45,566 nt of DNA. Origin: Escherichia phage vB_EcoS_XY1. The notes under the pieces are model-generated. The model was not told the DNA's origin and made no database searches. It worked only from the letters and a program-made list of their open reading frames with translations. Each line of letters opens with the position of its first letter. Within the stretch, counting starts at the first letter, position 1. Made by a program: the position numbers and the translations under genes. The stretch is taken from the sequence record NC_073325.1. One strand, 5' to 3'. Positions 26,285-29,338 of the stretch are shown here, piece by piece.

Positions 26285-26770
26285 TCATTTAACAGCCCTC
26301 CCGATAGCCTCAGCCTCTTGCCACGGTTTACCGTCGAACAGCGCCAGACGTCCGGCTGTACGGCGACGCAGGCCGAGTAACGGTTTGCCGTTCTGGTTGA
26401 TGAACAGCGCCAGCTTAGCCCGCAGCGTCGGAATATCACCGTAACGCAGAGCCTTACCCGTGCCCGTAGTAGACGCAATCACGCCAGCGCCCGCGTTATA
26501 GACCAGGTCGCAAACAGCATCAAACTGCGCCTGCGTCAGTGAATGGTGTGCCGCTGCATCAACCGCAGCTACAGCCTTAGCCATATCGCGATTCAGTAAC
26601 AGCAAGCCCTGTCCTGGTGTGATGGTCTTACCTGGTGTTACGTCCGGCCCGTAGTGGCCGTAGCCTATGGTAAGGTACTTCTCATTCGGCGTAGCGCGAT
26701 ACGCAGTTCCACGGAACCCCTCGAATGCGGCGGTAAAATGCAATCCATTATCTGAAATATTTCGAGACAC
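26285..26770 (-). CDS. Endolysin, phage lysozyme-like (GH24-type)
   Basis: N-terminal FEGFRGTAYR...YLTIGYGH lysozyme motif; directly downstream of two holin-like genes. Confidence 0.75.
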   Translation of the reverse strand: MSRNISDNGLHFTAAFEGFRGTAYRATPNEKYLTIGYGHYGPDVTPGKTITPGQGLLLLNRDMAKAVAAVDAAAHHSLTQAQFDAVCDLVYNAGAGVIASTTGTGKALRYGDIPTLRAKLALFINQNGKPLLGLRRRTAGRLALFDGKPWQEAEAIGRAVK

Positions 26771-27020
26771 GCTTATGCCCTCCGTATGACAGCCACGCCT
26801 GACGAATCTGGCGCAGCGCGACTAATGTGATTAATGTCTCAGGCAGCGTTGGCGACATGCTGCCATGTAACAGGTGGATGCATCCGGCAGCGCAGACGAT
26901 AGCAGTCAGGATATAGAGCACCCGACCAAATAATCCGTCGTCCACGCAGGGGTGATACACATTAAACAGCGATGCGCCCCCGATTGCCAGCATACCGCCG
27001 AACCAGAATAGCTCATTCAT
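26748..27020 (-). CDS. Holin or antiholin (second small membrane protein of the lysis cassette)
   Basis: 90 aa with two hydrophobic helices; overlaps both neighbours. Confidence 0.45.
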   Translation of the reverse strand: MNELFWFGGMLAIGGASLFNVYHPCVDDGLFGRVLYILTAIVCAAGCIHLLHGSMSPTLPETLITLVALRQIRQAWLSYGGHKRVSKYFR

Positions 27021-27321
27021 CCGGGCCTCCTCGACGTGAGATGTATTCCCCGGCGACGATACCGGATAGACGGGAATAAATAGGCATCCAGAGAATTGCG
27101 ATGATGAATCCCAGGCCAGCTATCTCTCGCTCGCCGGTGATACCGAACCATTGCGCTGCAAGAGGCGCACCGAATACGGCGCAGGTGAAGCCGGTAGCGA
27201 TAAAGCAGAAGCCATCAATAGGGCCAGAAATAACGGACTTATGTTGCCGTAGGCCGATTACCCCTCCGGCTAGTGCGGCAGCGAGAAGCCACCCCGTCAC
27301 TGTTTCAGTAAATTTATCCAA
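27013..27321 (-). CDS. Holin
   Basis: 102 aa with multiple hydrophobic helices and a charged C-terminus; first gene of the lysis cassette. Confidence 0.55.
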   Translation of the reverse strand: MDKFTETVTGWLLAAALAGGVIGLRQHKSVISGPIDGFCFIATGFTCAVFGAPLAAQWFGITGEREIAGLGFIIAILWMPIYSRLSGIVAGEYISRRGGPDE

Positions 27322-27396
27322 GATGAATCCTCCAGGTGCGTATTAAGTATGCAGTAACTGGAGGATACCACGGGTAGGAATTATCCTAATAGCGGT

Positions 27397-27690
27397 TTAT
27401 TTATGTCTCCAGATGTATTGTCGTCTCTGTGGTTTCGTCGGGATATCATCGTATCCCAGCGATTTCCAGTAATTAAATAACCGATTAGAGATTGCAGCGC
27501 GTTCCTGTGTTTTAAACTCACCGAGGTTTACGGCCTTCCCGTTCTGGAATCCACAGGCGCGGACAGCTTTACGCCGCTCTTGTATCTCAGGGAACAGTGC
27601 GTTACGGCGACGCTTGTGTATACGTGTCTTCGCTCTCGGTGACAGCGGCGCAAGGCCGCTTCGTTTCAGGATGTCAGTTGCGAGGCTCAT
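27397..27690 (-). CDS. Small basic protein with AP2-like DNA-binding motif
   Basis: NGKAVNLGEFKTQERAAISNRL resembles the AP2 motif also present in the 5247-5897 protein. Confidence 0.35.
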   Translation of the reverse strand: MSLATDILKRSGLAPLSPRAKTRIHKRRRNALFPEIQERRKAVRACGFQNGKAVNLGEFKTQERAAISNRLFNYWKSLGYDDIPTKPQRRQYIWRHK

Positions 27691-27938
27691 AGCAGAATGC
27701 CAAGTTCGTATATGGTTTGCTGGTCTACAAACTCAGGCGCTATAACGTCACTATAGTCGCTATACACCTTACCAGCTTCTCGCACAAGACAACGGGCTGC
27801 CGCTTTTATTTCCAGAAGTTTGGCTTCCAGTTCCTTGTAGTCTTCGTAGCTTACATAACGCCCTTCATGCGAGTCCGGGACAGGCGTTATATCTACTGCG
27901 CCCGCAAAATCTTCTGTTAAATCATATCTCTGTACCAT
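27687..27938 (-). CDS. Hypothetical protein, tandem paralog of 27938-28207
   Basis: Shares MVQRY...YEDY.ELE.K with the upstream gene; TGATG stop/start overlap (track ORF trimmed to the internal Met). Confidence 0.4.
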   Translation of the reverse strand: MVQRYDLTEDFAGAVDITPVPDSHEGRYVSYEDYKELEAKLLEIKAAARCLVREAGKVYSDYSDVIAPEFVDQQTIYELGILL

Positions 27939-28207
27939 CACTCCACCCCCTCCACATGTGTAACTGACCCACAGTTCGCGCACTCGACGTAATCAGGGAA
28001 CTGGTCTTTGTATTTCTGTAACTCGGCTTCCGCTTTTTCTGCCCACGCTAAAAAGTCGAAAGCGGCATTGAGCATCTGCGTACGCCATGTCCTGAGTTCA
28101 TTGAACTTACGCTCAAGTTCCGCGTAGTCTTCGTAACCAACCCAGTCACCATCGTCGTGCGGCCCTATTAAACCGCCTTGTAATAAATATCTCTGTACCA
28201 TAATCAC
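27938..28207 (-). CDS. Hypothetical protein, tandem paralog of 27687-27938; C-terminal CxxC
   Basis: MIMVQRYLL...GYEDYAELERKFNEL...CANCGS. Confidence 0.4.
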   Translation of the reverse strand: MIMVQRYLLQGGLIGPHDDGDWVGYEDYAELERKFNELRTWRTQMLNAAFDFLAWAEKAEAELQKYKDQFPDYVECANCGSVTHVEGVE

Positions 28208-28422
28208 TTCTCCTGTTTACCAAGTCGCTTAGGTGAGCAGATAGCGCGTACCTCTGAATCGTTAGGCTTGTCGCCCTGAAACAAGAAGTGCGCGTTCTCT
28301 GCAGCGCGTGCCGCTGACTGGCACGCCTCCATCGAGTAAAACGTTTCTGTTGCCGCCAGGTGCATCTGACCCGCAGATAACACCCAGATAAATAAGATGC
28401 TGGTCATTTCTTTAACCCACAT
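28204..28422 (-). CDS. Hypothetical small protein with N-terminal hydrophobic segment (possibly exported)
   Basis: MTSILFIWVLSAGQMHLAA signal-like segment. Confidence 0.3.
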   Translation of the reverse strand: MWVKEMTSILFIWVLSAGQMHLAATETFYSMEACQSAARAAENAHFLFQGDKPNDSEVRAICSPKRLGKQEK

Positions 28423-28679
28423 TTAATGCACATACATGGAAACCCGACTCCGTAAAATTGCCATTCGTGTTCACGCTGTTTCTCCTTCCACCGTACCCAC
28501 ATCCGCTGAACCTCTGGTTCAGCGTAGCCATTGTCTTTCCGGGCCGGGGTGAACCCAAACCGGCTCCGGAACCATATTTCAAACTGCTGCAAAGTGAGTC
28601 TCACTTCCTGGTAACTTGAAGCCGTTGTCGGTCCGCGCCACGTTCCACTCAATCCCACCGTGGTACACAACCATGTCAT
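28404..28679 (-). CDS. Hypothetical protein (start uncertain; overlaps 28579-28764)
   Basis: 91-aa ORF; overlap suggests a shorter true product. Confidence 0.2.
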   Translation of the reverse strand: MTWLCTTVGLSGTWRGPTTASSYQEVRLTLQQFEIWFRSRFGFTPARKDNGYAEPEVQRMWVRWKEKQREHEWQFYGVGFPCMCIKCGLKK

Positions 28680-28764
28680 CTAAATCCAGGTCTATAACGG
28701 TTCCTACTTTGAAGATGCCTTTAGTCAGTTCACTGTCTCTTTTTGTAACTTTAACTTCTAACAT
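28579..28764 (-). CDS. Hypothetical small protein
   Basis: 61-aa ORF in the same-strand early cluster. Confidence 0.3.
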   Translation of the reverse strand: MLEVKVTKRDSELTKGIFKVGTVIDLDLDDMVVYHGGIEWNVARTDNGFKLPGSETHFAAV

Positions 28765-29137: not shown

Positions 29138-29338
29138 TCACACTTCCGGCGGCTCAGGTAACGGCATCCAGTGAGTCACGTACTTATCGTAGTGATTCCA
29201 GAAAGGCTTTCTCCCGCCATCAGGAACGATGTAATAATCGTGTTGAACTGCGTTATTTAACGTTTCATACACCAGGAATTCTTTATCTGTACTACCGTTG
29301 CCCGGCAGCATCTCACTACACTTAATCCACTCACCCAT
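29138..29338 (-). CDS. Hypothetical protein, DUF551-like
   Basis: MGEWIKCSEMLPGNG N-terminus and ...HWMPLPEPPEV C-terminus; GAGGTGA SD. Confidence 0.35.
   Translation of the reverse strand: MGEWIKCSEMLPGNGSTDKEFLVYETLNNAVQHDYYIVPDGGRKPFWNHYDKYVTHWMPLPEPPEV

What the first reader, a model, noticed from the sequence alone, without database searches (positions are those of the whole stretch)
27687..28207. Tandem pair of paralogous small proteins in the leftward early cluster
Seen: 27938-28207 and 27687-27938 both begin M(I)MVQRY and share a YEDY-x-ELE-x-K core, joined by a TGATG stop/start overlap; the upstream copy ends in CANCGS. Inference: a recent tandem duplication followed by divergence. 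In phages, early-region small-gene duplications of this kind are typical of host-takeover or anti-defence proteins under diversifying selection.
Basis: partly seen in the sequence, partly recalled or inferred. Interest (0 to 1): 0.4.

Follow-up and report, generated by a model that had tools for sequence, protein, structure and literature searches.

The report
Modular small phage proteins, likely anti-defence
Two neighbouring small genes of an E. coli phage share a swappable N-terminal module but carry unrelated tails, and one tail matches the part of a known phage protein (Oad2) that separates an active from an inactive blocker of the bacterial OLD defence nuclease, so the pair is best read as part of a mix-and-match anti-defence kit, not a recent gene duplication.

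Summary
Genes A (27938-28201, minus strand) and B (27687-27938, minus strand) both start MVQRY, share about 45 N-terminal residues (19/46 identical, E 1e-7; profile comparison E 5e-16) and overlap by TGATG.

The reading "recent duplication plus diversifying selection" does not hold. The C-terminal halves are unrelated. The shared "head" is a portable module found at the N-terminus of 658 protein clusters. In Kagunavirus it occurs as at least 23 discrete classes, each under purifying selection (dN/dS 0.16). These classes are reassorted with several coiled-coil cassettes and at least 5 tails.

Relatives about 98% identical in the flanking DNA differ exactly here. One has a swapped B head, one lacks B, and one has a different second gene.

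The anti-defence guess gains support.
- B's tail is homologous (hhalign 97%, E 1e-11) to the central cassette of HK446 Oad2, an experimentally shown inhibitor of P2 OLD.
- That cassette is one of only two regions that differ from the inactive HK75 homologue.
- Among BASEL phages Bas70-76, the only genome segment that separates Old-tolerant from Old-sensitive phages is another tail (C) of a head-bearing gene at this locus (second position in two phages, the sole head gene in the third).

Function is untested. This is a new variant of a known kind.

The parts
27938..28201 (-). Gene A, 87 aa plus stop (ORF listed from GTG 28207; the likely start is ATG 28201). Layout: head, junction, coiled-coil cassette, Cys-x2-Cys tail.
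   Evidence: PHROG 29624, E 2.6e-25. 466 homologous clusters. Relatives annotate the 87-aa form.
28136..28201 (-). A head, residues 1-22 (MVQRY LLQGGLIGPHDDGDWVG), class 'LLQGG'.
   Evidence: Head HMM E 3e-16. The same class occurs on tail B in P0135 and P0137. Class census. AF2 predicts a small beta-hairpin at low confidence.
28112..28135 (-). A junction, residues 23-30 (YEDYAELE). This is the conserved joint and the start of the long helix.
   Evidence: Y26 and L29 are invariant; Y23, E24 and D25 are >=90% conserved. DNA island 18/20 shared with B. Junction dN/dS 0.19.
28025..28111 (-). A middle coiled-coil cassette 'm1', residues 31-59 (RKFNELRTWRTQMLNAAFDFLAWAEKAEA). It is optional and exchangeable.
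   Evidence: Relatives carry four alternative cassettes or none, each ending ..AEL. AF2 helix 23-67 with pLDDT above 90.
27941..28024 (-). Tail A, residues 60-87 (ELQKYKDQFPDYVECANCGSVTHVEGVE). Nearly invariant, with a single Cys-x2-Cys.
   Evidence: C74 invariant and C77 >=90% conserved. dN/dS 0.08 over 276 pairs. AF2 predicts a small hairpin, 71-73 and 80-82. No Pfam family; Lar_restr_allev only E 0.12.
27687..27938 (-). Gene B, 83 aa plus stop. Layout: head, junction, Oad2-like cassette. Start overlaps A's stop (TGATG); stop overlaps the next gene's start (ATGA).
   Evidence: 71 homologous clusters. Full-length matches among deposited phages only in Sciku and Shashou.
27849..27938 (-). B head, residues 1-30 (MVQRY DLTEDFAGAVDITPVPDSHEGRYVS), class 'DLTED..ITPVP'. 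This is the class also found outside Kagunavirus.
   Evidence: Head HMM E 5e-21. The same class occurs on tails A, C, D, E and others. It is also found in Wifcevirus, Phimunavirus and Klebsiella phage 37P2. DNA homology to JSSK01 breaks exactly at 27937..27857, which marks a head swap.
27825..27848 (-). B junction, residues 31-38 (YEDYKELE).
27690..27836 (-). B residues 35-83: tail B, the Oad2-like cassette (KELEAKLLEIKAAARCLVREAGKVYSDYSDVIAPEFVDQQTIYELGILL).
   Evidence: hhalign of the tail-B family against HK446 Oad2 residues 65-117: probability 97.4%, E 1.2e-11. Pairwise BLASTP E 1e-6. Bridge protein P0151: 49% identical to B over its full length and 26/52 identical to Oad2, E 3e-18. AF2 predicts helix-loop-helix.

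Best explanation
A and B are two translationally coupled members of a large mosaic family of small phage accessory proteins. They are not products of a recent local duplication.

**Architecture.** Each protein has three kinds of part:
1. A portable N-terminal 'head'. It consists of M-V-Q-R-Y, a 15-28-residue class-specific segment, and G-x-[WY]-V.
2. A conserved junction helix (YEDYxxLE), optionally extended by exchangeable coiled-coil cassettes.
3. One of several unrelated C-terminal tails.

**How the diversity arises.** Recombination at the conserved start, at the junction and at the '..AEL' joints reassorts old, individually conserved modules. This happens between the two tandem positions and between phages.

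**Where the family fits.** It connects to the EaE/Oad2 proteins of lambdoid and P22-like phages.

**Most likely function (inferred).** These are defence inhibitors that act by direct binding.
- B carries the cassette that distinguishes the active OLD inhibitor Oad2 from its inactive HK75 homologue. B is therefore predicted to bind and block a P2-Old-type nuclease.
- The second gene position acts as a slot for alternative anti-Old or anti-defence tails.
- A carries a different, strongly conserved Cys-x2-Cys tail and has another, unknown partner.
- The head plus coiled coil most likely provides oligomerisation or scaffolding, or a second binding surface.
For: **Shown: architecture and evolution.**
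- Homology between A and B is confined to the head.
- Up to 7 middle/tail combinations occur per head class.
- There are 23 discrete head classes among 152 non-redundant segments.
- Of the 24 related loci with a detectable head gene, 12 have two, 11 have one and 1 is an in-frame fusion. The same class appears at position 1 in one phage and position 2 in another.
- Every module is under purifying selection.
- Relatives with near-identical flanks show clean swaps. JSSK01 has a different B head, with the break at 27937..27857. VIPECOTH07 lacks B exactly. BUCT825 has another second gene.
- The head profile finds 658 clusters at E<=1e-3 among 1.84 billion representative proteins, nearly always at residues 1-40.
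- Longer members add the P22-EaE C-terminal domain.

**Shown: link to Oad2.**
- Tail-B family against Oad2 residues 65-117: hhalign 97.4%, E 1.2e-11.
- Bridge protein P0151.
- A reciprocal tblastn with the Oad2 cassette against the whole phage collection returns only HK446, Cyrano and the Kagunavirus tail-B genes; the tail-B hits have E 0.1 on their own.
- Oad2 is an experimentally shown direct inhibitor of P2 OLD, and the HK75 homologue is inactive (bioRxiv 10.64898/2026.07.10.737580).
- Active and inactive proteins are 67/72 identical at the N-terminus. They differ in the central cassette and in the segment after AEVRAQ.

**Shown: association.**
- BASEL raw data give these P2 Old plating efficiencies: Bas70 0.58, Bas71 0.15, Bas72 0.70, against Bas73 no plaques, Bas74 0.019, Bas75 0.023, Bas76 0.0055 (geometric means of the replicates, my arithmetic).
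- Only Bas70-72 carry a head gene with tail C.
- In a whole-genome window scan, this tail-C segment is the only DNA present in all three tolerant phages and absent from all four sensitive ones. No segment shows the reverse pattern.
Against: - No experiment on A or B exists.
- B shares only ~35% identity with Oad2 over 50 residues. It lacks Oad2's N-terminal 64 residues and the EaE C-terminal domain.
- Which part of Oad2 binds OLD is unknown. It could be the other variable segment.
- The inactivity of the HK75 homologue shows that specificity is narrow.
- The BASEL association concerns tail C, which is not homologous to Oad2 (E 0.14) and is not in this window.
- That association rests on 7 related phages assayed on two host backgrounds. 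With 106 variable segments per genome, about one perfect association is expected by chance. The weight rests on the locus having been chosen beforehand (1/35).
- A shows no similarity to Oad2.
- The head models have low confidence, pLDDT 51-62.
- No Pfam, NCBIfam, PDB or fold match gives a function.
Confidence: 0.55

Rival explanations
1. B arose by a recent tandem duplication of A in this lineage and then diverged fast under diversifying selection.
For: The genes are adjacent and co-oriented, share MVQRY and YEDY..ELE, and are identical over their first 15 nt.
Against: - The tails are unrelated and the heads belong to different old classes.
- Both classes occur with other tails and at other positions elsewhere.
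- dN/dS is 0.08-0.19 in all modules.
- Relatives with ~98% identical flanks differ by whole-cassette replacement or by absence of B.
Confidence: 0.05
2. The family is real and modular, but B's Oad2-like cassette is not the OLD-binding part. On this view Oad2's determinant lies in its distinct C-terminal segment. B and A would then target other host or defence proteins, or act in phage development, for example in replication or lysis timing.
For: Oad2 and the HK75 homologue also differ after AEVRAQ. B lacks that segment. Tail C, the module associated with Old tolerance, is unrelated to Oad2. The genes lie directly upstream of the lysis cassette.
Against: In the whole phage collection the Oad2 central cassette is found only in HK446, Cyrano and the tail-B genes. 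Independent data tie this very locus to Old sensitivity.
Confidence: 0.3
3. Head plus junction is chiefly an oligomerisation module. On this view A and the second-position protein form mixed coiled-coil complexes that display two different tails, and the pair works as one unit.
For: Both proteins are predicted as a short N-terminal hairpin followed by one long helix that cannot be stable alone. The junction is conserved in both. The genes are translationally coupled. In all 17 two-copy genomes seen, the two heads differ.
Against: - A or the second gene can each be absent: VIPECOTH07 and Bas73-75 lack the second gene, and Bas70 lacks tail A.
- Unlike head classes in all 17 pairs is not significant (chance 0.14).
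- No multimer prediction or experiment is available.
Confidence: 0.2
4. The ORFs are dispensable filler. On this view their mosaicism reflects relaxed constraint, and the similarity reflects recombination linker sequences acting at DNA level.
For: The genes can be present or absent among close relatives. Conserved DNA islands lie at the start and at the junction.
Against: - Purifying selection is strong in every module.
- Hundreds of intact homologues exist.
- The head is conserved at protein level with different codons, for example MVVRY and MVIRK starts, and in distant phage genera.
Confidence: 0.03

Closest known systems
Oad2 (phage HK446 gp27), inhibitor of the P2 OLD defence nuclease (bioRxiv 10.64898/2026.07.10.737580)
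   Same: B residues 35-83 are homologous to Oad2 residues 65-117. Both are small, helix-rich accessory proteins in highly mosaic gene clusters. Head-bearing proteins exist that share Oad2's coiled-coil segment (ELESKLETALRECRSAGITIDNLEAKC..AAEN) and, as Oad2 also does, carry an EaE-type C-terminal domain (P0365).
   Different: B lacks Oad2's N-terminal 64 residues and the 'ETPATDAFLAEVRAQ...QLRKG' C-terminal domain, and has the head instead. Identity is only ~35%. B sits upstream of the lysis genes of a virulent siphophage, not in the recombination locus of a temperate phage. A has no similarity to Oad2. Activity is untested.
P22 EaE and 'Eae-like' proteins of lambdoid and P22-like phages
   Same: They have the same junction and coiled-coil style (..DYRELEAKCAAL..) and extreme mosaicism. 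Swiduovirus swi2 'Eae protein' has a clear head (E 4e-13) followed by the EaE C-terminal domain.
   Different: A and B have no EaE C-terminal domain. P22 EaE itself is not detected by the head profile. No Pfam or NCBIfam model covers either group.
PHROG 29624 / PHROG 22955 (unknown function)
   Same: A matches phrog_29624 (E 2.6e-25). B's head matches both weakly (E about 1e-3).
   Different: These PHROGs carry no functional or structural description. They do not separate head, cassette and tail modules.
Oad1 of vibriophage ICP1 (inhibitor of a Vibrio Class 1 OLD nuclease; PMC12392090)
   Same: It would be a functional analogue if B inhibits OLD (title and abstract seen).
   Different: No sequence comparison was made here. 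There is no indication of homology.

Membership tests
EaE/Oad2-like phage proteins | C-terminal domain 'ETPATDAFLAEVRAQ ... (A)AQLRKG' | tested here: not met
   Absent from both A and B. Both proteins end before it (alignment A5).
EaE/Oad2-like phage proteins | Oad2-type central cassette (..ELLSEACKVYEKFNATISSDSGDFIDGQTLHEF..) | tested here: met
   Met for B only: hhalign 97.4%, E 1.2e-11, with bridge protein P0151 at E 3e-18. Not met for A.
EaE/Oad2-like phage proteins | Direct binding and inhibition of P2 OLD | not testable with these tools
   Only indirect evidence. The cassette is one of two regions that differ between active Oad2 and the inactive HK75 homologue. The same locus is associated with Old tolerance in Bas70-76, through tail C.
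EaE/Oad2-like phage proteins | Location in the early-left recombination locus next to erf/abc2/kil/cIII | tested here: not met
   Here the genes lie in a run of small ORFs immediately upstream of the holin and endolysin genes. The exonuclease and Gp2.5-like annealing protein lie on the other arm at 35.5-37.5 kb. Compare P22 and HK446.
Head-module family (defined here; no public model) | N-terminal M-V-Q-R-Y, class-specific 15-28 aa, G-x-[WY]-V-x-Y-E-D-Y-x-x-L-E at residues 1-45 | tested here: met
   Both A and B: head HMM E 3e-16 and 5e-21 (the model includes close relatives). Independent profile-profile comparison E 5e-16. 658 clusters found in the library of representative proteins.
PHROG 29624 | Significant match to the family profile | tested here: met
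   A: E 2.6e-25, with an insertion relative to the 60-aa profile. B: only E 1.3e-3 on the head.
Lar restriction-alleviation / zinc-ribbon proteins (PF14354) | Score above the Pfam gathering threshold; two Cys-x2-Cys pairs | tested here: not met
   A scores E 0.12, 13 bits against a cut-off of 28.6. It has only one Cys-x2-Cys (C74, C77).
Ead/Ea22-like proteins (a lead from memory) | Match to the Pfam Ead/Ea22 model | tested here: not met
   No such hit for A, B or 20 relatives, including the long head-bearing proteins.

The most novel reading that the evidence does not exclude
The locus is a mix-and-match anti-defence toolkit. A common head/coiled-coil scaffold, itself available in at least 23 conserved classes, carries interchangeable inhibitor tails. 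On this reading:
- tail B is a minimal version of the OLD-binding cassette of Oad2;
- tail C is a second, non-homologous anti-Old module;
- tail A and the other tails target further defences.

If so, B pinpoints the functional core of Oad2. The undescribed head module would mark hundreds of uncharacterised candidate anti-defence proteins across enterobacterial phages.
Probability: 0.3. Interest if true: 0.75.

Novelty: new variant of a known kind. Interest (0 to 1): 0.58.

Why it matters
If the prediction holds, an 83-residue protein would define the minimal OLD-inhibiting cassette of Oad2. It would also explain why the HK75 homologue is inactive: the two differ by a module swap, not by scattered substitutions.

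It would account for the variable Old sensitivity of Kagunavirus phages. These are candidates for therapy and synthetic biology.

The head module has no public domain model (Pfam, NCBIfam). It would become a search handle for a large, unannotated reservoir of candidate defence inhibitors in Kagunavirus, Wifcevirus, Phimunavirus, Swiduovirus and lambdoid phages.

The locus is also a clean natural example of protein evolution by reassortment of conserved cassettes at short conserved joints.

Tried and rejected
- **Family libraries.** Pfam, NCBIfam and PHROG scans of A, B, their neighbours and 20 relatives gave no informative family. The weak Lar_restr_allev hit is below threshold.
- **Ead/Ea22.** A remembered resemblance to Ead/Ea22 was not confirmed by Pfam. 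The real link is to P22 EaE and came from tblastn.
- **Structures.** PDB sequence searches and Foldseek against PDB and BFVD returned only sequence relatives or noise. The AF2 models are a hairpin plus a long helix, with low-confidence heads.
- **Negative comparisons.** A against Oad2 and tail C against Oad2 showed no homology. The Oad2 N-terminus is not detected by the head HMM.
- **Names.** The listing of cluster members gave no names.
- **Different heads within one genome.** The idea that the two heads in a genome are selected to differ was tested. All 17 pairs are unlike, but chance alone gives that result 14% of the time, so it was dropped.
- **Promoters and terminators.** Counts are not above shuffled controls, so the temporal class is left open.
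- **Genome-wide association.** On its own it is not significant, since about 0.8 perfect hits are expected by chance. It counts only because the locus was specified beforehand.
- **First profile search.** It was rerun without that row.

Full report
**Setting.** The window is a Kagunavirus-like (Guernseyvirinae) E. coli siphophage. Across 27300-28700 it is 96.6-96.8% identical to JSSK01, BUCT825 and vB_VIPECOTH07 over the 82-89% of that stretch that aligns. On the minus strand a run of small ORFs descends from about 30.2 kb. It runs without a gap into two holin genes (27013-27321, 26748-27020) and the endolysin gene (26285-26770). The replication and recombination genes are on the plus strand from 31.1 kb: helicase-primase, exonuclease, Gp2.5-like annealing protein, polymerase.

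**Observation.** The two ORFs are there.
- A is listed as 27938..28207 from a GTG. The ATG at 28201 has an AGGAG 8 nt upstream, relatives annotate the 87-aa form, and nearly all homologues start MVQRY or a close variant.
- B is 27687..27938. A's stop and B's start overlap as TGATG, and B's stop overlaps the next gene's ATG.
- BLASTP gives 19/46 identities, E 1e-7, only in the first ~45 residues. Family profiles give E 5e-16 over 53 columns.
- In a six-frame search of the whole window each protein finds only the other.
- At DNA level only two short islands match: the first 15 nt and 18/20 nt at YEDY..EL.
- The C-terminal halves are unrelated.

**Anatomy of the family.** A has 466 homologous 90%-identity clusters and B has 71, mostly on contigs of ~44 kb where a long contig is available. 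Reading the sequences shows three kinds of part.
- *Head:* MVQRY, then a 15-28-residue segment, then G-x-[WY]-V.
- *Junction:* YEDYAKLEAEL.
- *Optional middle cassettes:* four coiled-coil types, each ending ..AEL.
- *Tails:* several unrelated types.
  - Tail A: QKYKDQFPDYVECANCGSVTHVEG.
  - Tail B: LEIKAAARCLVREASKVYSDYSDVIAPEFVDQQTIYELGILL.
  - Tail C: RKLRNFADQVLYAPCSKVTEEMACEILGI.
  - Tails D, E and others.

The same head class is found with up to seven middle/tail combinations. The A head of the window also occurs on tail B (P0135, P0137). The B head also occurs on tail A (P0144, P0155).

The variable segments fall into 23 classes at 60% single linkage among 152 non-redundant sequences. 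Median identity between classes is 15%.

**Copies per genome.** I built a head HMM and scanned 26 related loci.
- The window has exactly two head genes.
- Among the 24 related loci with a detectable head gene, 12 have two tandem head genes, 11 have one, and one (L026) is an in-frame fusion. In most two-copy loci the first gene carries tail A and the second another tail.
- The same head class sits at position 1 in one phage and position 2 in another.
- In all 17 two-copy genomes seen, the two heads belong to different classes. Chance alone gives this 14% of the time, so I draw nothing from it.

**Selection.** Every module is under purifying selection.

| Module | dN/dS | Basis |
|---|---|---|
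| Tail A | 0.08 | 276 pairs |
| Tail B | 0.10 | one pair |
| Tail C | 0.18 | 13 pairs |
| Junction | 0.19 | 249 pairs |
| Head variable segment, within class | 0.16 | 26 pairs |

The window B head and the L010 head are identical in amino acids at dS 0.70. The diversity is therefore a set of old, conserved alleles that are reassorted. It is not fast point-mutational divergence.

**Direct evidence for cassette exchange.**
- JSSK01 has the same A (97.4% DNA identity) and tail B. Homology breaks exactly at 27937..27857, where a different head class sits.
- vB_VIPECOTH07 is 98.8% identical up to 27936 and resumes at 27681, so B is precisely absent.
- BUCT825 has a different second gene.
- Sciku has another A head but the same B.

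This rules out a recent local duplication as the origin of B.

**Wider relatives.** A profile of 33 diverse heads found 658 clusters (E<=1e-3) among 1.84 billion representative proteins. The head lies at residues 1-40 in nearly all of them, in proteins of 39-264 aa. Some proteins carry two heads in one chain; these look like fused tandem genes.

Longer members add an AAENAALK-type coiled coil and the domain 'ETPATDAFLAEVRAQGV...AAQLRKG'. By tblastn this domain is the P22 EaE C-terminal domain. Swiduovirus swi2 'Eae protein' has head plus EaE domain.

The head also occurs in Wifcevirus FEC19, Phimunavirus Momine and Klebsiella phage 37P2. No Pfam or NCBIfam model covers any of this.

**Link to a known function.** A 2026 preprint (bioRxiv 10.64898/2026.07.10.737580) makes these points:
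- HK446 gp27, named Oad2, is 'related to P22 EaE'.
- It binds the P2 OLD nuclease and inhibits it in vivo and in vitro.
- The HK75 homologue, 54% identical, does not inhibit.

I fetched both proteins.
- B residues 35-83 align to Oad2 residues 65-117: pairwise E 1e-6, and hhalign with the tail-B family gives 97.4% probability, E 1.2e-11.
- P0151 bridges the two. It is 49% identical to B over its full length (E 1.8e-15 in a database of 5.8 billion sequences) and 26/52 identical to Oad2 (E 3e-18).
- The reverse search, with the Oad2 cassette against the whole phage collection, returns only HK446, phage Cyrano ('Eae-like') and the Kagunavirus tail-B genes (E 0.1 for the latter).
- Oad2 and the inactive HK75 protein are 67/72 identical at the N-terminus. 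They differ in two blocks: the central cassette, where HK75 has the P22-EaE type, and the stretch after AEVRAQ.

The activity difference must therefore lie in one or both of these blocks, and B carries one of them. A shows nothing comparable.

**A natural experiment.** After forming the anti-OLD hypothesis I took the P2 Old plating efficiencies of the seven BASEL Kagunavirus phages from the S1 Data of PMC11990801. The values below are geometric means of the replicates (my arithmetic).

| Phage | Old plating efficiency | Head genes at the locus |
|---|---|---|
| Bas70 | 0.58 | single head gene with tail C |
| Bas71 | 0.15 | tail-A gene plus tail-C gene |
| Bas72 | 0.70 | tail-A gene plus tail-C gene |
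| Bas73 | no plaques in any replicate | tail-A gene only |
| Bas74 | 0.019 | tail-A gene only |
| Bas75 | 0.023 | tail-A gene only |
| Bas76 | 0.0055 | tail-A gene plus two unrelated small genes |

The A proteins of Bas72 and Bas73 differ by one residue.

I then fetched all seven genomes and scanned them in 120-nt windows. At 70% or 80% identity, the tail-C-coding segment is the only DNA present in all three tolerant phages and absent from all four sensitive ones. No segment shows the reverse pattern.

Caveats:
- There are only seven related phages.
- Bas70-73 and Bas74-76 were assayed on different host backgrounds.
- About 0.8 perfect associations are expected by chance among 106 variable segments. 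Only the prior choice of the locus (1/35) gives the result weight.
- Tail C is not homologous to Oad2 and is not in this window.

**Structure.** AF2 predicts a short N-terminal hairpin for each protein, at low confidence (pLDDT 51-62). A long helix follows (pLDDT above 90).
- A then has a small hairpin that holds the single Cys-x2-Cys.
- B then has a loop and a second helix.

A lone 35-45-residue helix suggests an oligomeric coiled coil. This is an inference and was not tested. Two Cys-x2-Cys motifs from two chains could share a zinc ion; this is speculation.

**Conclusion.** The proposed duplication-and-divergence history is not supported, and neither is diversifying selection.

What is there is a pair of modular proteins from a large, unannotated, reassorting family linked to EaE/Oad2. 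The best-supported function is defence inhibition. B is a predicted OLD inhibitor (my estimate about 0.4-0.45). A's partner is unknown. I put the architectural and evolutionary part at about 0.85 confidence.

Noticed in passing
L026 3001-3333; L017 3001-3303 (IMG/VR relatives): These are in-frame fusions. In L026, tail A is cut at ..FPDYV and joined to the junction of the second gene (KLELKLRRLAK.., tail C). In L017 (and likewise in protein P0052), tail A reads through into a downstream Cys-rich small ORF (..CEHVWNRYIVHPHRKICLVCG). That adds a second Cys-x2-Cys, so the product looks like a complete zinc ribbon.
   Followed up: partly
window 28204-28422 (-): The gene just upstream of A (phrog_3766) starts with a hydrophobic, signal-peptide-like stretch (MTSILFIWVLSAGQMHLAA). 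It is conserved in Klebsiella phage 37P2, where it lies after the head gene instead of before it.
   Followed up: no
window 27322-27396; relatives BUCT825 (L038 1568-2008), Sciku (L039 1442-1879), Bas73: Several close relatives carry an HslV-family peptidase gene between the phrog_9632 gene and the holin gene. This window lacks it. A promoter-like site (27409..27380, minus strand) lies in that gap.
   Followed up: no
L027 2501-2926 (FEC19); proteins P0079, P0109, P0281, P0327: A further unannotated C-terminal domain (..AWTVW.GG.NPVPGK...DIIAYRVV) is attached either to head plus coiled coil or after tail A. Pfam has no match for it.
   Followed up: partly
proteins P0281, P0282, P0302, P0324, P0375: These proteins have two head modules in a single chain. 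They look like fused tandem head genes, so the tandem arrangement recurs outside Kagunavirus.
   Followed up: no
L032 5509-6036 (HK446) and L035 301-780 (HK75): The '54% identity' between active Oad2 and the inactive HK75 homologue is modular. The first 72 residues are 93% identical, followed by two replaced blocks. The preprint reads the difference as an evolving interface.
   Followed up: yes
window 28404-28679 and 28579-28764 (-): Two ORFs in different frames overlap by about 100 nt. The 91-aa one has no PHROG match. JSSK01 annotates a 108-aa 'langerin binding protein' here, so gene calls in this stretch are uncertain.
   Followed up: no
window 29138-29338 (-): A small DUF551-like protein (MGEWIKCSEMLP...). 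JSSK01 annotates its equivalent as 'valyl-tRNA synthetase', which is an evident annotation error carried between records.
   Followed up: no
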